Notes under the pieces: model-generated
The model's input: the letters and a program-made list of their open reading frames with translations, nothing else
What the model was told of the DNA's origin: nothing
Database searches by the model: none
From: a virus
DNA: 8,257 bases
Virus genome (UHGV): UHGV-0211679
Direction: 5' to 3' (one strand)
Part shown: positions 2,438-7,916 of the stretch, piece after piece
Position numbering within the stretch: position 1 is the stretch's first letter
Layout: the number at the start of each line of letters is the position of its first letter
Program-made: the position numbers and the translations under genes

Positions 2438-2746
2438 ATGGATTCTTATGGGATTTTATCTGCTCTGGCAGAACGAACGATTACAGCGGAAGAAGCAAAA
2501 ACAATGACACTTGCAGCCAGAAGTTCTTCGGCTCAGGTAAATGAAGCATCACTTGCTCTGTTACTGATTGATAATACTCTGGATGCGATCAAAGCAGCTG
2601 CCAGTGAAGGGAAAGGATACACTTTACTTCCTTCTTATGAGATTTCTTTAAAAGCCATTGATTTAGCAGAAGAATTTTTAAGGAAACAATGCGGCTATGT
2701 TATTGATAACCAGAATGGCGTAAGGACGGTCTATTGGTTTATATGA
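2438..2746 (+). CDS. Hypothetical protein, 102 aa, no recognisable family
   Basis: ORF ATG 2438 to TGA 2744-2746; weak SD-like GGGG 7 nt upstream. Mildly acidic, predicted mostly helical, no TM segment. Flanked by two long hairpins, so it could alternatively be non-coding intergenic sequence. Confidence 0.4.
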   Translation: MDSYGILSALAERTITAEEAKTMTLAARSSSAQVNEASLALLLIDNTLDAIKAAASEGKGYTLLPSYEISLKAIDLAEEFLRKQCGYVIDNQNGVRTVYWFI

Positions 2747-2863: not shown

Positions 2864-3097
2864 ATGCAATTTTTCACATCCAGCGATACTGTAATGTTAT
2901 GTGCGAAGACCTGCGATCGCTGTGGTCGCCATGCGAAGACGGTGGTAGATGACATTGAGTTCAATGAGTTTCTGTCTGTTAATCACTTAGCTGGATACGG
3001 TTCAATTTTTGGTGACAGTAATCGCTTAAAACTGGATTTATGCCAACATTGCCTGAAAGACGTCCTGGGCCAGTGGATTACGGTCTGTGACCAATGA
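2864..3097 (+). CDS. Small zinc-ribbon-like protein, 77 aa (CxxC...CxxC)
   Basis: ATG 2864 preceded by a strong SD GAGGAG (2853-2858) with 5-nt spacer; stop TGA 3095-3097. Two CxxC pairs (CDRC and CQHC) about 43 residues apart suggest a Zn-binding ribbon. No family assignment possible by eye. Confidence 0.6.
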   Translation: MQFFTSSDTVMLCAKTCDRCGRHAKTVVDDIEFNEFLSVNHLAGYGSIFGDSNRLKLDLCQHCLKDVLGQWITVCDQ

Positions 3098-3135: not shown

Positions 3136-3168
3136 GGTGCGCATAATGTACGACTCGTTATGTTGAAA
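3136..3168 (+). other. dif-like XerC/XerD recombination site (candidate attP of an Xer-exploiting integrative phage)
   Basis: GGTGCGCATAA (3136-3146) is an 11/11 match to the XerC arm of E. coli dif (GGTGCGCATAA-TGTATA-TTATGTTAAAT, recalled). Then TGTACGACTCG (11-nt central region beginning TGTA), then TTATGTTGAAA (3158-3168), 9/11 to the XerD arm. Central region is longer than the canonical 6 bp. Confidence 0.6.
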
Positions 3169-3202
3169 AGGCCGCTGCGAAAATAGAATCCCGCAGCGGC
3201 CT
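3169..3202. terminator. Hairpin between convergent genes, putative bidirectional intrinsic terminator
   Basis: AGGCCGCTGCG (3169-3179) / CGCAGCGGCCT (3192-3202): 11-bp GC-rich stem, 12-nt loop. Followed by CTTTA on + and TTTCAA on the minus strand, so the U-tracts are short. Lies between the end of the 2864-3097 ORF and the end of the minus-strand operon. Confidence 0.5.
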
Positions 3203-3232
3203 CTTTAGCATAACGTCATTGTGCGAACCAAT

Positions 3233-3937
3233 TCATAATGCTGCGGGAGCCACGTAATAGACAATCACAAATACAGCTAATGCTCCACCTGCTCTTACCC
3301 AGTTTGATATTTTGACTTCTATAAACCCGGGTATAAATGAGACTACCCCAGCAACTGCTGCTGAAAGAATTATTCGAAAGAAAGTGTATTGAAAGTTCGT
3401 TGGATTAGGTATAAATATTGCGATTATTATAAAAAGAATAACAAGTAAAATGCCAAAGCTAAATGCCGCTATTCTCTCGTGTGCTTTTGTCAATTTTTCT
3501 TTTCCTTTATTGTCAAATCCATATACTGGCATATCTTCATTAACGAAAAGATTCCTTATTTCTTTTGCAGAACGTTTGTCATGGGCTTTTACTATCCTTT
3601 GCATTGAAGCAAAAGCAGTGGAGCTTGGTTTAATACTATTATCATTCATTACCTCTCTATATTTTTTGTAATGAGCTAAGATAAGGTGAAGAACATCAAT
3701 GCATGTTTCTGCAAGCCATTGATTCCATTGAGTATTATTTAATTCATCTACTGTTCTGTTATGTGCAGCGCAGTGTTCTAAATAGCCGAAAAAACTGTCT
3801 CCACATGAATTCACGGTATCAAAATCACATTTACCAGATAGGTAACACTCTAATGACTCAGTATATTTTTCATATAAACGCTCAATTTCTTTTTTTTGAT
3901 TATCAATGATACCGTGAACATCCATATCTGATTTCAC
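3233..3937 (-). CDS. Membrane protein, about 230 aa: Cys-rich soluble N-domain plus C-terminal transmembrane helices; function unknown
   Basis: Minus-strand ORF, stop TGA (rc of 3233-3235). First codon is GTG at 3937-3935, overlapping the upstream TAG (TAGTG); the first ATG is at 3925-3923. N-terminal about 155 aa hydrophilic with C-x5-C-x7-C-x10-C (LECYLSGKCDFDTVNSCGDSFFGYLEHC). C-terminus has hydrophobic stretches FSFGILLVILFIIIAIFIP, FFRIILSAAVAGVVSFIPGFI and GGALAVFVIVYYVAPAAL. Visibly AT-rich compared with the phage core. Confidence 0.6.
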   Translation of the reverse strand: MKSDMDVHGIIDNQKKEIERLYEKYTESLECYLSGKCDFDTVNSCGDSFFGYLEHCAAHNRTVDELNNTQWNQWLAETCIDVLHLILAHYKKYREVMNDNSIKPSSTAFASMQRIVKAHDKRSAKEIRNLFVNEDMPVYGFDNKGKEKLTKAHERIAAFSFGILLVILFIIIAIFIPNPTNFQYTFFRIILSAAVAGVVSFIPGFIEVKISNWVRAGGALAVFVIVYYVAPAAL

Positions 3938-4212
3938 TATCTTTTTTGTTGAGTGTTATTTGACTGGGATTGAATTTTTGCCAATAGCGAACTTGCTTTC
4001 GATGTATTCAATCCATTACAAATCATTCTTGTAATCGGTTTTTTGTAAATTCGATGAACGATATTTTCAACTTCAGTGATGCTTTCATTGCCACTGAGTT
4101 TTTTTATCTCATTGAACATCTCCTCCAATTGTTCATTTGTTGGATGCCATTTGATTATATCTAATTCTTCCTCTAATGCTTTTTTAAAAAGGAAAACCTG
4201 AAAAGATAACAT
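3937..4212 (-). CDS. Hypothetical small protein, 91 aa, with C-terminal tail paralogous to the upstream ORF
   Basis: ATG at 4212-4210 preceded by AAGGAAAG with 4-nt spacer; stop TAG (rc of 3937-3939). C-terminal 26 aa NGLNTSKASSLLAKIQSQSNNTQQKR parallels the tail of ORF 4214-4510. Confidence 0.55.
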   Translation of the reverse strand: MLSFQVFLFKKALEEELDIIKWHPTNEQLEEMFNEIKKLSGNESITEVENIVHRIYKKPITRMICNGLNTSKASSLLAKIQSQSNNTQQKR

Positions 4213-4213
4213 A

Positions 4214-4510
4214 TTACTTTCCTTGTGTTGGTTTAGTAGTGGATTGTTGAGCTTTTTCTAAAAGCCTTTTTGCTTTAGATGTGTCCAAACCATCTTGGGC
4301 AAAGCCTTGTTGCTTATCATTCTGTTTTTGTTCACTTTTTTTTGGCGTATTCATCAGTATATACTTTGACTCGTTTTGTTTATCTCGATGACTTACTTTT
4401 TGTTTAAGTTTTGCACAAACTAGAACGTGCAGTGTTGGTAATACTGCACGTTTGTACCATTCGTGGTACTTAATCCTTTTGTTTGGCAGACATGAGATCT
4501 TCTGCTGCAT
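4214..4510 (-). CDS. Hypothetical small K/Q-rich protein (start uncertain), tail paralogous to ORF 3937-4212
   Basis: Stop TAA (rc of 4214-4216), 1 nt before the ATG of the next gene. The track start at 4528 is a TTG; the first ATG is at 4510-4508, and a later ATG at 4354-4352 would give a 46-aa product. None has a clear SD. C-terminal 26 aa DGLDTSKAKRLLEKAQQSTTKPTQGK. Overlaps the end of the RHH gene if started at 4510. Confidence 0.3.
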   Translation of the reverse strand: MQQKISCLPNKRIKYHEWYKRAVLPTLHVLVCAKLKQKVSHRDKQNESKYILMNTPKKSEQKQNDKQQGFAQDGLDTSKAKRLLEKAQQSTTKPTQGK

Positions 4511-4652
4511 CTTTAGAGTAGTTATCAATCAGATAACCTAAAATCTCTGTCCATGTAATTGTTTTTCCTAGTTTTACACTGGCATTTATAGCCAGTCGTT
4601 CTAGTTTCATTTTTCTTTCTTCCGTCACGTTATAAGTCGTGCGCTTTGCCAT
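4470..4652 (-). CDS. Ribbon-helix-helix-like small DNA-binding protein, 60 aa (candidate phage repressor or antitoxin-type regulator)
   Basis: ATG at 4652-4650, stop TAA (rc of 4470-4472). MAKRTTYNVTEERKMKLERLAINASVKLGKTITWTEILGYLIDNYSKD fits an RHH pattern: short N-terminal beta-strand (TYNVT), helix, turn, helix. Divergent from gene II across a repeat-containing region. Confidence 0.55.
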   Translation of the reverse strand: MAKRTTYNVTEERKMKLERLAINASVKLGKTITWTEILGYLIDNYSKDAAEDLMSAKQKD

Positions 4653-4699
4653 TTTTTACGCTCGTTCAATGCAATATTTGAAGTGAGTATACATGCTCA

Positions 4700-4779
4700 T
4701 GAACTCATATCATCCAAGCCTCTTGAACTCACTAGCTCACTGATGTAATGTTAAAACACTAATGAACTACTGAACTCAT
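4700..4779. promoter_or_regulatory. Four direct TGAACT(C/A) repeats in the divergent control region (candidate operator or iteron array)
   Basis: TGAACTCAT at 4700-4708, TGAACTCAC at 4724-4732, TGAACTAC at 4763-4770, TGAACTCAT at 4771-4779. Located between the RHH gene start (4652, minus) and the gene II start (4822, plus). Confidence 0.45.
4723..4751 (+). promoter_or_regulatory. Candidate sigma70 promoter for gene II
   Basis: TTGAAC (4723-4728), 17-nt spacer, TAATGT (4746-4751). The -35 overlaps one TGAACT repeat. Pattern match by eye only. Confidence 0.3.
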
Positions 4780-4821
4780 GTGTTAGTAAGTCGTCATTTT
4801 TGCAATTTTGAGGATTTATTC

Positions 4822-5874
4822 GTGATCGATTGGCTTACCGGGATTTTCCCTTGCACACACAAACCGCTTCCGGCGGGGAGTGTTGTCAGCGTTGATGCTG
4901 ACGGTGCAATTGAGTGGGAAACCGTTAAGCGACTGACTGTTCGCGGCTCGCATGAAGCAACGATGAAAGTACGATCGATAGGATCTAATGGCGAAGGTAA
5001 AGCGACACATTTGTACATTGATGGTAATCCGTCCAAGTTTTTGCAGGGGCATTCTGTTGTTGGGTCGGATGATATACAAGGGCTCATGTTGACGGTCTAT
5101 GCCAGGATTTTATCCTTATTGAATATTCCTCATGATTTAGCGTCTTATAAAGCTGTTATAGCAGGTCAGTATAAAATTTCACGTGTTGACATTAATTACA
5201 TGTATTCATTATCTACGCTAGAAAATGTCAGATCATGGCTTTATGCCGCCGAATTTAAAGCTAAAACACGCCATGGTCGCGCATGTGGGAAAGGCGGTAC
5301 AGTTTATTTAGGTAAAAACTCCCGTCGATGGAGTCTGAAATTTTATTCAAAATATGATGAACACGTTTCGGGTAAAAAAGGGCACCAGATAGCCGAAGAT
5401 TTTGTACGAGCCGGGTTACTGGACTGGACGAAAGATAAATTACGTATTGAATTAACATTAAGAACAACTGAGCTTATTGATTTAAATTTAACGCTTGGCG
5501 CTAACTGGAATATGAAAACACCACGTCAATTATTCTCTGAATATGTAGGGAGAATAGAAATGAATCAGAATGCTATTTTAAGTGATGAAAAAATAACGAA
5601 ACTGCCAAGAAAAATACAGTCAACTTATTTACTTTGGAAACAAGGGGCTAACATGAAAGAAATGTTACCTCATAACACTTTTTATCGCCATAGAAGAGAA
5701 TTGCTTTCGTTCGGTATCGATATTAATTTCTATTGTGATTCACCAGACTCTAATAACGTTGTTCCGCTAATAAGAACGCTGGAAGCCAAGCCAGTGGAAA
5801 TCCCCTTATGGATTTATGAGAAAGGTTTTATTTTCGATTACAACCGTATTTCGCACGCCAGTAGCTGGCATTAA
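4822..5874 (+). CDS. II: Replication initiation protein pII (gene II, rolling-circle nickase)
   Basis: GTG start at 4822 preceded by GAGGA (4810-4814) with 7-nt spacer; product begins (M)IDWL..., compare M13 pII MIDML.... Blocks NPSKFLQGHSVVGSDD and NNVVPLIR match recalled M13 pII (SPAKVLQGHNVFGTTD, NNVVPLVR). Stop TAA 5872-5874. An upstream in-frame GTG at 4780 lacks an SD. Confidence 0.85.
   Translation: MIDWLTGIFPCTHKPLPAGSVVSVDADGAIEWETVKRLTVRGSHEATMKVRSIGSNGEGKATHLYIDGNPSKFLQGHSVVGSDDIQGLMLTVYARILSLLNIPHDLASYKAVIAGQYKISRVDINYMYSLSTLENVRSWLYAAEFKAKTRHGRACGKGGTVYLGKNSRRWSLKFYSKYDEHVSGKKGHQIAEDFVRAGLLDWTKDKLRIELTLRTTELIDLNLTLGANWNMKTPRQLFSEYVGRIEMNQNAILSDEKITKLPRKIQSTYLLWKQGANMKEMLPHNTFYRHRRELLSFGIDINFYCDSPDSNNVVPLIRTLEAKPVEIPLWIYEKGFIFDYNRISHASSWH
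5560..5874 (+). CDS. X: pX (gene X), in-frame internal start within gene II
   Basis: ATG at 5560 in the gene II frame with SD GGGAG (5548-5552); product MNQNAILSDEK..., 104 aa, equal to the C-terminal part of pII, as in Ff phages (M13 pX starts MNIYDDSAVL). Confidence 0.6.
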   Translation: MNQNAILSDEKITKLPRKIQSTYLLWKQGANMKEMLPHNTFYRHRRELLSFGIDINFYCDSPDSNNVVPLIRTLEAKPVEIPLWIYEKGFIFDYNRISHASSWH

Positions 5875-6406: not shown

Positions 6407-6649
6407 ATGAAAATTCTGTCTACTGTTAAATATAAAGTTGCTCTGGCTTCAACTGCGCTTTTTGTTTCTGCAAGTTCTTTTGCGGCTGAAGGCGCTACAG
6501 GTGGTACTGATTATGCAGGTCAGGCAATGGATGCTTTGTTGACTCAGGCAAATGATCTCATTGGTAAAGTATGGCCTGTTGTTGTGGCTGTGGTTGGCGC
6601 TGGGCTTGCCATTCGTATTTTCAAAAAATTCTCTTCAAAAGCGGTTTGA
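6407..6649 (+). CDS. VIII: Major coat protein pVIII precursor (gene VIII)
   Basis: ATG 6407 with GGAG 8 nt upstream; 80 aa. Signal peptide ending SSFA, then mature AEGATGG...[25 protein letters not shown]. The C-terminal [11 protein letters not shown] and WPVV match my recollection of IKe pVIII more closely than M13 (FKKFTSKAS). Stop TGA 6647-6649. Confidence 0.93.
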
Positions 6650-6658
6650 ATTTCACTC

Positions 6659-6683
6659 AGGGGCACTCGTTGCCCCTTTATTA
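6659..6683 (+). terminator. Rho-independent terminator after gene VIII
   Basis: AGGGGCA (6659-6665), loop CTCGT, TGCCCCT (6671-6677), then TTTATT. Position matches the strong central terminator downstream of gene VIII in Ff phages. Confidence 0.75.
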
Positions 6684-6695
6684 AAGCGGGTTACT

Positions 6696-7916
6696 ATGAA
6701 AAGGAAAATATTAATTCTTTCCGCTGTCCTCATTTCTCCTTTTTCACATGCTGAGTCATGGGAAAGCATTACTAAATCCACTTATCAAAGCTCTGCCTAC
6801 GCTGAAAGTAAGCAAATAACCAATCAGGATGGCTCTAAGTCAACGGTTTACTATATTGATGCTGCTATGCAGGCCTCCGCTTGTCAGGGTGCTAAATCCA
6901 GTGCTCAGAGTGTATTTACTCAGGTTAAACCAACTTATGAGGGTATCTGGCCTGATTCTGAATTCCGTCTTGTTTTTACTGGTGATTGTACTTACAGCGA
7001 TTCACCAGGGCAGAAGGATAAATATTGGTCTTTAACGGCTTATATTGTTGGTGATATTCAGCGTTCTGTTCCTGATGAAAAACCTACTGACCCGACACCA
7101 GAAGAAATTTGTGAAGCGAAGCCGCCAGAAGAAGGTGTATTTAATAATGTTGATTCATATGATGGTGGTCGTTATATCTACTATAACGGCTGTGAATATG
7201 AGGCTACTGGTGTCATTGTTTGTCAGGGTGATGGTACTGTTTGCGCTGCAACATGGAAGCCTACAGGTACTGTAGCTGACCCCTCTGATAAACCCTCAAC
7301 CCCCCAAAATGGTGGTGGTGAGTCTGGCGGTGGTGAGTCTGGCGGTGGTGAGTCCGGTGGCGGTAGTTCTGGCGGTGGCTTTAGTGGTTCCAGTCTTTCT
7401 AAAGGTGATATTCAGTCTGCTATCGAAGGTGCTTCACCCAAAATAGCCAGCGATATTCATGATAAATTAACGGAGAAAGACACTTCATCAGATGATAAAA
7501 AAAATGCCGATGAACAAACTAGGAATAATATAAATCGTCTTGACGATTCCATTAACAATCTTACGCGGGGGGCTGGCCGTTTTGCTGACCCTTCAGGTGG
7601 TGATTCTCGTTATGGAAAGGGCGACTCTGAATTAGATGGCGCTTCTACTTTGGCTGATTCTGAATTGGGAATTGAAAAGGATTCTCACGGTGCTTTATGG
7701 GAAGCATTTTTAAATAAAGGTGCTATGCTGCCTAATTTACCCAATGGTAACGGCTGCTCTGATTTTATTATTTTTCCCGGAGAGGTTTATCAGATTGATA
7801 TTGGTTGCGATAAATTACTGACTATTAAAGATGTTCTTTCATGGGTTTTTTATTGCCTTACGTTCTGGTATGTCTTTACTTCTTTAACTTCATTGCTTCG
7901 CAAAGGGGGTGAGTGA
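6696..7916 (+). CDS. III: Adsorption protein pIII (gene III) with Gly-rich linker
   Basis: ATG 6696 gives signal peptide [19 protein letters not shown]. Gly/Ser-rich linker [23 protein letters not shown] and a hydrophobic C-terminal anchor ([14 protein letters not shown]) are typical of pIII. Stop TGA 7914-7916 overlaps the gene VI ATG (TGATG). The track start at 6552 overlaps gene VIII and is rejected. Confidence 0.9.
7311..7379 (+). repeat. Tandem 15-bp repeats encoding the pIII (GGGES)n linker
   Basis: GGTGGTGAGTCTGGC at 7314-7328 and 7329-7343, with diverged copies at 7344-7358 and 7359-7373. Confidence 0.85.

What the first reader, a model, noticed from the sequence alone, without database searches (positions are those of the whole stretch)
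3937..4294. Two adjacent small ORFs share a paralogous 26-aa C-terminal tail with mostly synonymous DNA differences
The tails DGLDTSKAKRLLEKAQQSTTKPTQGK and NGLNTSKASSLLAKIQSQSNNTQQKR align without gaps, both ending at the stop (11/26 identical, core GL-TSKA--LL-K-Q). The underlying DNA (rc of 4270-4294 versus rc of 3993-4017) differs mainly at third positions (gga/ggt, tcg/tct). That argues both frames are translated and that the motif is under selection, perhaps as a shared interaction tail. It suggests tandem duplication of a small gene.
Basis: seen in the sequence. Interest (0 to 1): 0.5.

Follow-up and report, generated by a model that had tools for sequence, protein, structure and literature searches.

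The report
Small prophage proteins share docking helix
Two tiny neighbouring genes in a filamentous prophage of pathogenic E. coli really do share a conserved C-terminal helix; the same helix marks a whole uncharacterised family of small proteins that always sit just upstream of one membrane protein on mobile elements, and it probably serves to dock onto a common partner.

Summary
ORF A (46 aa, 4214-4354, minus strand) and ORF B (91 aa, 3937-4212, minus strand) align without gaps at 11/26 residues. Ten of the 11 identities fall in the first 16 residues (G-L-[DN]-T-S-K-A-x-x-L-L-x-K-x-Q). DNA differences are spread 10/10/12 over codon positions, so they are not mainly synonymous.

Stronger evidence comes from relatives:
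- Orthologues of A and B are under purifying selection (dN/dS about 0.07-0.25 where dS could be estimated).
- The helix is the best-conserved block of a B family with 31 representatives.
- An A-family profile matches B residues 60-90 (HHalign E=1.5e-7). A is therefore a truncated paralogue that keeps only the helix.

The window is a CUS-1-like filamentous prophage that integrates at dif. A and B belong to a portable cassette, [A]-B-([A]-B)-membrane protein, found in 14 distinct loci. These include three inovirus lineages, a locus beside a P4-like primase, integrase islands and IS-flanked sites.

AlphaFold predicts the helix as undocked from B's own domain. The membrane protein has a confidently predicted cytoplasmic helical bundle and three transmembrane helices. 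No Pfam, NCBIfam, PADLOC or structure match exists.

My inferred mechanism is a shared docking helix through which A and B control a membrane effector. This resembles SpoIISABC in logic but is unrelated in sequence, and it is untested.

The parts
4214..4354 (-). ORF A: 46 aa, MNTPKKSEQKQNDKQQGFAQDGLDTSKAKRLLEKAQQSTTKPTQGK. It has a polar N-terminal stretch (read from its K/Q/N/S-rich composition), the shared helix and a polar basic tail. It is a truncated paralogue of the C-terminal third of B.
   Evidence: PGAP calls this 141-nt CDS in the identical E. coli F11 prophage. Six protein clusters, all 46 aa, were found. Against the Dickeya orthologue, dN/dS is 0.076 and differences are 5/3/18 by codon position. 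HHalign against the B family gives E=1.5e-7.
4244..4294 (-). Shared motif in A: D21-Q37, DGLDTSKAKRLLEKAQQ. It consists of an N-cap turn (G-L-D-T-S) followed by an amphipathic helix.
   Evidence: DGLDTSKAKRLLE is identical in 9 of the 13 aligned A-type proteins, and D21, G22, D24 and L32 are invariant in all 13.
3937..4212 (-). ORF B: 91 aa. An N-terminal alpha/beta domain (residues 1-62, conserved W-x-P-[TS]) is followed by a linker, the shared helix (70-84) and a polar tail.
   Evidence: It matches phrog_6502 over its full length. Homologues occur in E. coli, Dickeya and Pectobacterium. The exhaustive profile search found 31 representatives. The AlphaFold model has mean pLDDT 70.6. dN/dS is 0.07-0.25 across the five of six B-B orthologue pairs for which dS could be estimated.
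3967..4017 (-). Shared motif in B: N66-S82, NGLNTSKASSLLAKIQS.
   Evidence: GLNTSKAS-LLAKI is invariant in homologues that are only 64-80% identical overall. AlphaFold predicts it as helix 70-84 with block-mean pLDDT of about 50-63, separated from the domain by a linker (64-69) with pLDDT below 50.
3233..3925 (-). Membrane protein, 230 aa from the ATG (234 aa if the GTG at 3937 is used). It has a cytoplasmic helical-bundle domain (residues 1-140) and three predicted transmembrane helices (147-171, 177-195, 207-228). It is the invariant last gene of the cassette and the candidate partner or effector.
   Evidence: It matches phrog_5814 and is called by PGAP. 57 homologues were found. The AlphaFold model has pLDDT 80, with block means of 75-97 (mostly 90-97) in the N-terminal domain. 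A homologue of it is the last gene in 13 distinct cassettes examined; the remaining distinct locus, L012, is cut off just after B.
4470..4652 (-). First gene of the minus-strand operon, 60 aa. It occupies the position of the RstR-like repressor, divergent from the replication gene at 4780-5874.
   Evidence: It matches phrog_2503, and a homologue sits upstream of the cassette in Dickeya. The literature places an RstR-like regulator at this position in YpfPhi/CUS-1 (PMC4266046). Its function was not tested here.
4355..4469 (-). Intergenic region between the 60-aa gene and ORF A. It contains two stable RNA hairpins and could be an attenuator or an operator.
   Evidence: RNA folding gives -28.6 kcal/mol with z=-3.17 against shuffles. 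This ORF A has no clear Shine-Dalgarno sequence, unlike its orthologues.
4686..4713 (-). Sigma-70-like promoter match upstream of the 60-aa gene. It is a candidate promoter for the four-gene operon.
   Evidence: This is a consensus scan result only, and the number of matches is no higher than in shuffled sequence.

Best explanation
Shown:
- ORF A and ORF B are real genes under purifying selection. They belong to a conserved accessory cassette with the gene order [A]-B-([A]-B)-membrane protein.
- The cassette lies at the repressor-side (attL-proximal) end of this CUS-1-like filamentous prophage. It also occurs on other mobile elements.
- The 'shared tail' is an N-capped amphipathic helix of about 16-18 residues, consensus [DEN]-G-L-[DN]-[TN]-S-x-[AT]-x-x-L-L-x-x-[AI], followed by a variable polar tail. 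It is the hallmark C-terminal element of the whole B family.
- A is a truncated paralogue that keeps only this segment (B residues 60-90) behind a polar, low-complexity N-terminus.

Inferred:
- The helix is a docking element that folds when it binds a common partner.
- The most likely partner is the cytoplasmic helical-bundle domain of the three-transmembrane-helix protein encoded immediately downstream and translationally coupled.
- B (a folded domain plus the helix) and A (the helix alone, acting as a competitor or co-regulator) would then jointly hold or tune a membrane effector. This would be a toxin-antitoxin-like or exclusion module, expressed together with the repressor in the lysogen.
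For: Real similarity and real genes:
- Shuffle tests on the pair in the window.
- HHalign of the A family against the B family, E=1.5e-7.
- Orthologue dN/dS of 0.07-0.25 in all pairs where dS could be estimated.
- G, L, D/N, S, LL and A/I are nearly invariant across 46 proteins.

The helix is probably a binding element and not part of B's core:
- AlphaFold gives the domain (1-62) a pLDDT of about 80, the linker below 50, and the helix block means of about 50-63.
- A carries the helix with no folded domain.
- The conserved hydrophobic positions follow an i, i+3, i+4, i+7 pattern, which places them on one face of the helix.

A common partner encoded alongside:
- In 13 distinct cassettes examined, the small genes are directly followed by a homologue of the same membrane protein; the 14th locus, L012, is cut off just after B. 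Starts and stops overlap or abut.
- The core cassette is B plus the membrane protein (L011, L013).
- A, when present, always precedes a B.

The partner has a suitable receiving domain: its N-terminal five-helix bundle is predicted with block-mean pLDDT of 75-97, mostly 90-97.

Effector-like character and mobile context:
- The transmembrane module is 50-60% identical to modules fused to other soluble domains in distant phyla.
- The cassette lies downstream of the repressor in three inovirus lineages, beside a P4-like primase, beside an integrase, and next to AbiJ or HigB.

Precedent for the logic: SpoIISA is a membrane toxin neutralised by two adjacent small paralogous cytosolic antitoxins (PMC4926146).
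Against: - No interaction, toxicity or phenotype was tested, and no multimer prediction was available.
- There is no hit to any known toxin-antitoxin, defence or Pfam family.
- This particular ORF A lacks a clear Shine-Dalgarno sequence, and there is no proteomic evidence for a 46-aa product.
- The low pLDDT of the helix could reflect the shallow 6-sequence alignment and not true flexibility.
- In distant B members the helix is more hydrophobic (LLALAIQ), which would also fit self-association or packing onto B itself.
- Part of the tail's purine-rich coding sequence also serves as the ribosome-binding site of the next gene.
Confidence: 0.45

Rival explanations
1. The shared helix is an oligomerisation element. 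A and B, and pairs of B paralogues, would associate with each other through it as a helix bundle or coiled coil. A would act as a capping or dominant-negative subunit. The membrane protein would be linked functionally but would not bind the helix.
For: Cassettes carry 1-4 helix-bearing proteins for each membrane protein. The helix has a single hydrophobic face and becomes more hydrophobic in distant members. AlphaFold leaves it unpacked in the monomer.
Against: Minimal cassettes have a single B (L011, L013), so pairing between different small proteins cannot be the core function. The helix is short, about 14 residues. This reading does not explain why the membrane-protein gene always follows.
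Confidence: 0.2
2. The helix is a short linear motif that binds a conserved host protein or the inner membrane itself. A and B would be independent prophage accessory factors, for example regulators of a host machine or exclusion factors, and would merely be co-transcribed with the membrane protein.
For: The architecture is a conserved helix with a variable polar basic tail at the end of a flexible segment. The cassette functions in hosts ranging from Enterobacterales to Aeromonas and Microbulbifer. A is little more than the motif.
Against: The motif splits into clade-specific versions (DTSKA versus DNSD) that follow the divergence of the co-encoded membrane protein. This is expected for a co-evolving cassette partner more than for one conserved host target. 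The mean hydrophobicity of the enterobacterial helices is low (H of -0.5 to 0.0), which argues against direct membrane insertion.
Confidence: 0.15
3. A and B are nucleic-acid-binding regulators. The G-L-[DN]-T-S...LL segment would be the turn and recognition helix of a helix-turn-helix-like element, and the basic tails would contact DNA or RNA.
For: The B profile gives a weak sequence match to the winged-helix protein ScpB (E=0.75). The tails are K/Q/R-rich. The genes lie in the regulatory arm of the prophage.
Confidence: 0.05
4. The resemblance is a chance or compositional similarity between two K/Q/S-rich low-complexity tails, and one ORF is not a gene.
For: The last 10 residues of the two tails share only 1 identity and resemble each other in composition only. 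When the 104-aa version of A is used, the shuffle P rises to 0.003.
Against: When only the tails are shuffled, which preserves their composition, 0 of 200,000 shuffles reach the score. HHalign between the families gives E=1.5e-7. The motif is conserved across 46 proteins. Both ORFs are under purifying selection in orthologues.
Confidence: 0.01

Closest known systems
SpoIISABC toxin-antitoxin-antitoxin system of Bacillus (PMC4926146, PMC4526809)
   Same: Both have a membrane protein of about 230-250 aa with three transmembrane helices and a cytosolic domain. Both have two adjacent small, hydrophilic cytosolic proteins that are paralogues produced by duplication. In SpoIIS the small proteins bind the cytosolic domain of the membrane protein. 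In both, the number and arrangement of the small genes varies between lineages.
   Different: There is no sequence relationship: Pfam gives no SpoIISA hit at E<=1. The transmembrane helices are C-terminal here and N-terminal in SpoIISA. According to the paper, SpoIIS is core genome in Bacillus and is linked to sporulation, whereas this cassette is found in Gammaproteobacteria on mobile elements. Here one paralogue (A) is a truncation that keeps only the C-terminal helix. Toxicity and neutralisation have not been tested here.
Typical type II antitoxins, which have a folded N-terminal domain and a disordered C-terminal segment that folds onto the toxin (for example Phd, CcdA, MazE; from general knowledge, reviewed in PMC4803016, which was listed but not read)
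   Same: B has a small folded N-terminal domain followed by a flexible C-terminal helix. The small genes lie upstream of the putative effector gene and are translationally coupled to it. The cassette is carried on mobile elements.
   Different: The putative toxin is an integral membrane protein of no known toxin family. No DNA-binding fold was detected in B. There are no matches to toxin-antitoxin or defence models. A helix-only extra gene is not a standard feature of these systems.
Accessory ('moron') modules at the regulatory end of filamentous prophages, for example the PfiT/PfiA toxin-antitoxin system of Pf4 (abstracts of PMC12328805 and PMC13048266) and the toxin-antitoxin and superinfection-exclusion genes of inoviruses covered by PMC6813254 (abstract and term counts only)
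   Same: The cassette sits next to the repressor, on the strand opposite the structural genes. It is swappable between related phages: YpfPhi carries unrelated ORFs, YPO2271 and YPO2272, at the same place (PMC4266046).
   Different: It has no sequence similarity to those modules. This cassette ends in a membrane protein and has repeated genes bearing the same helix.
Carrier-protein (ACP/PCP) G-x-D-S-L phosphopantetheine site, a resemblance recalled from memory
   Same: There is a superficial similarity of pattern: G-[LIV]-D-x-S at the N-terminus of a helix, followed by hydrophobic residues.
   Different: Here the Ser is one residue further from the Asp. The motif lies at the start of the last helix and not the second. 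A has no four-helix bundle. Pfam gives no PP-binding hit at E<=1. I rejected this resemblance.

Membership tests
SpoIISABC toxin-antitoxin-antitoxin | The toxin belongs to the SpoIISA protein family. | tested here: not met
   Pfam scan of the 234-aa protein at E<=1 returns only ENOD93, Peptidase_M4 and DUF1129 noise. NCBIfam returns nothing relevant.
SpoIISABC toxin-antitoxin-antitoxin | A membrane protein with three transmembrane helices and a cytosolic domain. | tested here: met
   AlphaFold predicts a helical bundle at 1-140 and helices at 147-171, 177-195 and 207-228. The domain order is reversed relative to SpoIISA.
SpoIISABC toxin-antitoxin-antitoxin | Two adjacent small hydrophilic paralogous proteins. 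| tested here: met
   A (46 aa) and B (91 aa) are adjacent and related, although A matches only the last third of B.
SpoIISABC toxin-antitoxin-antitoxin | The small proteins bind the cytosolic domain and neutralise toxicity. | not testable with these tools
   This needs multimer prediction, pull-downs and toxicity assays.
Type II toxin-antitoxin systems (known families) | The toxin or antitoxin matches a described toxin-antitoxin family. | tested here: not met
   Pfam, NCBIfam and PADLOC give no significant hit for A, B or the membrane protein.
Type II toxin-antitoxin systems (known families) | The antitoxin gene lies upstream of the toxin gene and is translationally coupled to it. | tested here: met
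   The A stop and B start read TAATATG. The B stop overlaps the GTG, or lies 12 nt before the ATG, of the membrane-protein gene. The same coupling is seen in relatives.
Known anti-phage defence systems (PADLOC-DB 2.0) | A protein match to a defence-system model. | tested here: not met
   The only match is Csx27, at E=0.0056 and 15 bits, for the membrane protein. A and B have none.
Helix-turn-helix or winged-helix DNA-binding proteins (ScpB-like) | Sequence or fold match to a helix-turn-helix or winged-helix domain. | tested here: not met
Acyl/peptidyl carrier proteins | A PP-binding domain with a G-x-D-S-L site at helix II. | tested here: not met
   Pfam gives no PP-binding hit at E<=1. The motif has D-x-S spacing and lies at the last helix.
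Filamentous phage (Inoviridae) of the CUS-1/YpfPhi kind (context of the window) | A G2P replication protein, a G5P single-stranded DNA-binding protein, coat proteins, Zot-like and secretin genes, and integration at dif through inverted XerCD sites. | tested here: met
   Phage_CRI at E=6e-69 and Putative_G5P at E=7e-51. PGAP annotations of the identical F11 prophage beside hipBA. Inverted dif-like sites at 3137-3232. Organisation as described in PMC4266046.

The most novel reading that the evidence does not exclude
The conserved C-terminal helix is a universal 'plug' that lets one to four different small cytoplasmic proteins dock onto a single membrane effector. The B paralogues would act as sensors or regulators, and A would be a natural helix-only decoy. 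Together they would form a previously unrecognised, portable, multi-input membrane effector system for abortive infection, exclusion or addiction. Filamentous prophages, other mobile elements and genomic islands exchange this system.
Probability: 0.25. Interest if true: 0.7.

Novelty: new variant of a known kind. Interest (0 to 1): 0.45.

Why it matters
CUS-1 and YpfPhi are filamentous prophages linked to the fitness of invasive E. coli K1 and of Yersinia pestis. [quoted passage not shown]

This work adds four things:
- The attL-side ORFs of the CUS-1-type prophage are not orphans. They form a portable cassette with a clear gene-order rule.
- The cassette contains an unannotated-looking 46-aa gene that is real.
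- The one sequence element all the small proteins share is now defined.
- This gives a concrete, cheap hypothesis to test: helix-dependent control of a membrane protein.

If the hypothesis holds, it would also be a natural example of a helix-only mini-protein evolved from a domain protein as a regulator. If the cassette proves to be a toxin-antitoxin, exclusion or defence module, it would add a new family to those carried by inoviruses.

Tried and rejected
1. 'Mostly synonymous differences': rejected. Differences are 10/10/12 by codon position and dN/dS is about 0.4-0.6 on a saturated 16-26 codons.
2. The 104-aa or 98-aa version of ORF A, which the PHROG profile spans: rejected in favour of 46 aa.
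3. Motif also present in the membrane protein, as a helix mimic of its residues 113-123: HHalign probability 0.35%, rejected. B family against the membrane protein: 0.24%.
4. Natural B-membrane-protein fusion as a Rosetta stone: P0064 (364 aa) is only extended at its C-terminus and is not a fusion.
5. ScpB or winged-helix lead: not significant.
6. ACP-like G-x-D-S motif: no Pfam support and wrong spacing.
7. Membrane-targeting amphipathic helix: the hydrophobic moment is moderate, but the mean hydrophobicity of the enterobacterial helices is low. Not favoured.
9. 'Two different N-terminal domains with the same tail' in Aeromonas: corrected, since both are divergent members of the B family.
10. 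PADLOC, NCBIfam and Rfam: no assignments.
11. Literature search for the RefSeq accessions: none found. The original CUS-1 paper (PMC135385) is not held.
12. Scans with the A and B alignments of viral contigs, and with the A alignment of metagenome contigs, found only further copies of cassette types already seen, plus a close variant of the window's cassette (L033-L035, A 83% identical). No A occurs without a B.
Full report
**What the window is.**
The 8257-base window is a complete, circularly permuted genome of a filamentous phage.
- On the plus strand it encodes a Zot-like protein and a secretin (1-2368), a G2P-type replication protein (4780-5874; Phage_CRI, E=6e-69), a G5P-like single-stranded DNA-binding protein, and coat, attachment and pVI-like proteins.
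- The region 3200-4780 is 100% identical to prophages of extraintestinal pathogenic E. coli such as strain F11, where the prophage lies directly beside hipBA.
- Between 3137 and 3232 there are two dif-like XerCD sites in inverted orientation around a GC-rich hairpin. This is the attP structure described for YpfPhi and CTXphi (PMC4266046).
- The element is therefore of the CUS-1/YpfPhi kind. That review states that the attL-adjacent ORFs of CUS-1 ('orf1, orf1a') have no homologues in the databases and no known function. The finding lies in exactly that segment.

**The operon.**
Four genes are transcribed divergently from the replication gene on the minus strand:
- a 60-aa protein (4470-4652) at the position of the RstR-like regulator;
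- ORF A;
- ORF B (3937-4212, 91 aa);
- a 230-aa membrane protein (3233-3925).

PGAP calls ORF A as 46 aa (4214-4354) in the identical F11 sequence. The mechanical ORF list gives a 104-aa TTG-start form that overlaps the 60-aa gene, and the PHROG profile spans a 98-aa form. The short form is better supported. All six homologous protein clusters are 46 aa. In Dickeya the 46-aa form is the largest ORF listed at that position. The upstream stretch folds into two stable hairpins and is not conserved as coding sequence. The A stop and B start read TAATATG, and the last codons of A (CAA GGA AAG) carry B's Shine-Dalgarno sequence. The B stop overlaps a GTG and lies 12 nt before the ATG of the membrane-protein gene.

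**Checking the observation.**
- The two tails align without gaps at 11/26 identities, as stated. Ten of the identities fall in the first 16 residues.
- The local alignment score of 49 was reached by none of 20,000 whole-protein shuffles of the 46-aa A against B. When only the two K/Q/S-rich tails were shuffled, none of 200,000 reached it, so composition does not explain the similarity.
- The DNA argument fails. The 32 nucleotide differences are distributed 10/10/12 over codon positions. Nei-Gojobori estimates give dN 0.53 and dS 0.88 for the tail, and 0.29 and 0.72 for the motif.

**Evidence from relatives.**
- B has homologues in E. coli, Dickeya and Pectobacterium that are 64-80% identical overall but keep GLNTSKAS-LLAKI invariant.
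- A has homologues that keep DGLDTSKAKRLLEKAQQSTT invariant.
- Orthologue comparisons show purifying selection on both genes. A in the window versus Dickeya has differences of 5/3/18 by codon position, dN 0.095 and dS 1.246. Three other A-A and B-B pairs give dN/dS of 0.07-0.17 and two B-B pairs about 0.15-0.25; two pairs were too saturated for a dS estimate and two failed on a wrong coordinate.
- An exhaustive profile search with B found 31 representatives at 50% clustering or below. Nearly all are 80-117 aa, with an N-terminal domain carrying W-x-P-[TS] and a C-terminal G-[LMIV]-[DN]-x-[ST]...L-L..[AI] helix.
- Across 46 A- and B-type proteins, the counts at the conserved positions are G 43, L 35, D/N 46, S 37, L 39, L 44 and A/I 40.
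- A profile of 13 A-type proteins matches a profile of 33 B-type proteins over A 15-45 = B 60-90 (HHalign probability 93.9%, E=1.5e-7).

A is therefore a paralogue of only the last third of B: the helix, its N-cap and the polar tail. It sits behind a polar, low-complexity N-terminus.

**The cassette.**
I examined 14 distinct loci. In 13 of them the helix-bearing genes are followed directly by a homologue of the membrane protein; L012 is cut off just after B.

| Arrangement | Loci |
|---|---|
| A-B-TM | window, Dickeya L002, L020, L033/L034 |
| A1-B1-A2-B2-TM | L003, Cedecea L005, inovirus L009 |
| A-B-B-TM | L010, L022 |
| B-B-TM | Aeromonas L014, L018 |
| B-TM | L011, Microbulbifer L013 |
| B only (contig ends just after B) | L012 |

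TM = the membrane protein.

- Both small Aeromonas proteins are divergent members of the B family.
- A never occurs without a following B, including in the viral and metagenome scans.
- The contexts are mobile. In three inovirus lineages with different repressors the cassette lies downstream of the repressor gene. It also lies beside a P4-like primase and beside an integrase. It is flanked by IS transposases and sits next to AbiJ or H-NS and HigB.
- L003 is followed by the same attP-like structure as the window, so it is probably an inovirus or IMEX remnant and not an independent context.
- YpfPhi carries unrelated ORFs at this position, so the cassette is a swappable accessory module.

**Structure predictions.**
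- The transmembrane module is 50-60% identical to modules fused to ankyrin, DUF4019 and other domains in Vibrio, Aeromonas and Verrucomicrobiota. This suggests a functional membrane module and not a simple anchor.
- Pfam, NCBIfam, PHROGs (families of unknown function only), PADLOC and PDB sequence searches assign no function to any of the four operon proteins.

**Mechanism.**
Shown: the tail is a conserved, homologous, selected helix that defines a family and is present in one to four copies per cassette. It is not confidently packed on B's own domain. It is always co-encoded with, and translationally coupled to, one membrane protein that has a well-folded cytoplasmic domain.

Inferred: the helix is a docking element for a common partner, most economically the cytoplasmic bundle of that membrane protein. 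B (domain plus helix) and A (helix only) would then jointly regulate a membrane effector expressed from the repressor-side operon in lysogens.

The closest described logic is SpoIISABC. SpoIISA is a 248-aa membrane toxin with three transmembrane helices. It is neutralised by two adjacent small hydrophilic antitoxins that arose by duplication and bind its cytosolic domain (PMC4926146). Membership in that family is excluded: there is no SpoIISA match, the domain order is reversed and the taxa differ.

Rival readings, in decreasing order of probability:
- the helix mediates association among the small proteins;
- it binds a host target;
- it is part of a nucleic-acid-binding element, supported only by a non-significant ScpB hit;
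- it is chance similarity, which is excluded.

I put about 0.95 on 'real, homologous, selected motif in two real genes'. I put about 0.55 on 'docking helix for a common partner', and about 0.35-0.45 on 'the partner is the co-encoded membrane protein, in a toxin-antitoxin-like or exclusion module'.

**Caveats.**
- Nothing functional was tested, and no multimer prediction was possible.
- The B model rests on six sequences.
- This particular ORF A lacks the clear Shine-Dalgarno sequence that its orthologues have.
- The purine-rich tails double as ribosome-binding sites for the next gene, so part of their composition may be constrained at the RNA level.

**Novelty and interest.**
The families exist in databases as hypothetical proteins or PHROGs of unknown function, and some B homologues are mis-named 'S-(hydroxymethyl)glutathione dehydrogenase'. 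I found no description of the cassette, of the shared helix, or of the 46-aa gene in the literature searched. The general kind, small regulators with a membrane effector on mobile elements, is known. This family, its gene-order rule and the helix-only paralogue are new. Interest is moderate. It is a well-supported and readily testable lead into the unexplained end of a virulence-associated prophage, but it has no demonstrated function.

Noticed in passing
window 3137-3232: This is a CTXphi/YpfPhi-style attP. Two dif-like XerCD sites lie in inverted orientation: GGTGCGCATAATGTACGACTCGTTATGTTGAAA, and on the other strand AATTGGTTCGCACAATGACGTTATGCTAAAGAGG. They flank the hairpin GGCCGCTGCG...CGCAGCGGCC. 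It marks the junction at which the circular genome opens on integration beside hipBA.
   Followed up: partly
window 4355-4469 (minus strand): The intergenic region between the 60-aa gene and ORF A folds into two stable hairpins (-28.6 kcal/mol, z=-3.17). The second has a 10-bp stem and is followed by UUCUAGUUUGUG. It could be an attenuator, terminator or operator. ORF A here lacks the Shine-Dalgarno sequence seen in its orthologues.
   Followed up: partly
L002 4892-4917; L003 5319-5344; L005 3045-3070; L012 2449-2474: A conserved 26-nt hairpin element, GTTCGNGTGTCACAGAACCCNGAACC, lies upstream of the cassette in four loci: within about 130 nt in L003, L005 and L012, and about 940 nt upstream, just after the regulator gene, in L002. 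It is absent from the window, and no Rfam family matched in the three of these loci that were scanned (L003, L005, L012). It could be an IS end, a terminator or a regulatory RNA.
   Followed up: partly
window 3233-3487 (residues ~147-230 of the membrane protein); P0080, P0081, P0091, P0093, P0097: The C-terminal three-helix transmembrane module is 50-60% identical to modules fused, at either end, to ankyrin repeats, DUF4019 and other soluble domains in Aeromonas, Vibrio, Oceanospirillales and Verrucomicrobiota. It appears to be a widespread modular membrane domain with no Pfam family.
   Followed up: partly
P0001, P0005, P0006 (homologues of window 3937-4212): NCBI and UniRef name several of these 91-aa proteins 'S-(hydroxymethyl)glutathione dehydrogenase'. 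This is a propagated mis-annotation.
   Followed up: no
L003 6974-7040: In L003 the cassette is followed directly by the same dif-like site and GC hairpin as the window's attP. Upstream it is flanked by an IS transposase. It therefore looks like the remnant of a Xer-integrated element near an AbiJ gene.
   Followed up: partly
window 2438-2746 and 2864-3097 (plus strand): Two further small ORFs of unknown function lie next to attP (102 aa, phrog_4115; 77 aa with CxxC...CxxC, phrog_5435). They probably correspond to the YPO2280a/YPO2281 homologues described as function-unknown in YpfPhi and CUS-1.
   Followed up: no
P0002, P0008, P0011, P0053 (variants of the window's genes in E. coli and Klebsiella aerogenes): Some genomes carry variant copies. 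There is a B with a frameshifted tail (102 aa), a truncated B (62 aa) and a truncated membrane protein (143 aa). There is also an A with a substitution just before the motif (...GFAKMVLDTSKA...). The cassette therefore seems to decay in some hosts.
   Followed up: no
L001 11497-12776 versus window 6552-7916: The attachment-protein (pIII-like) gene is annotated as frameshifted in the E. coli F11 prophage. In the window it is one open frame with a GGGES-repeat linker.
   Followed up: no
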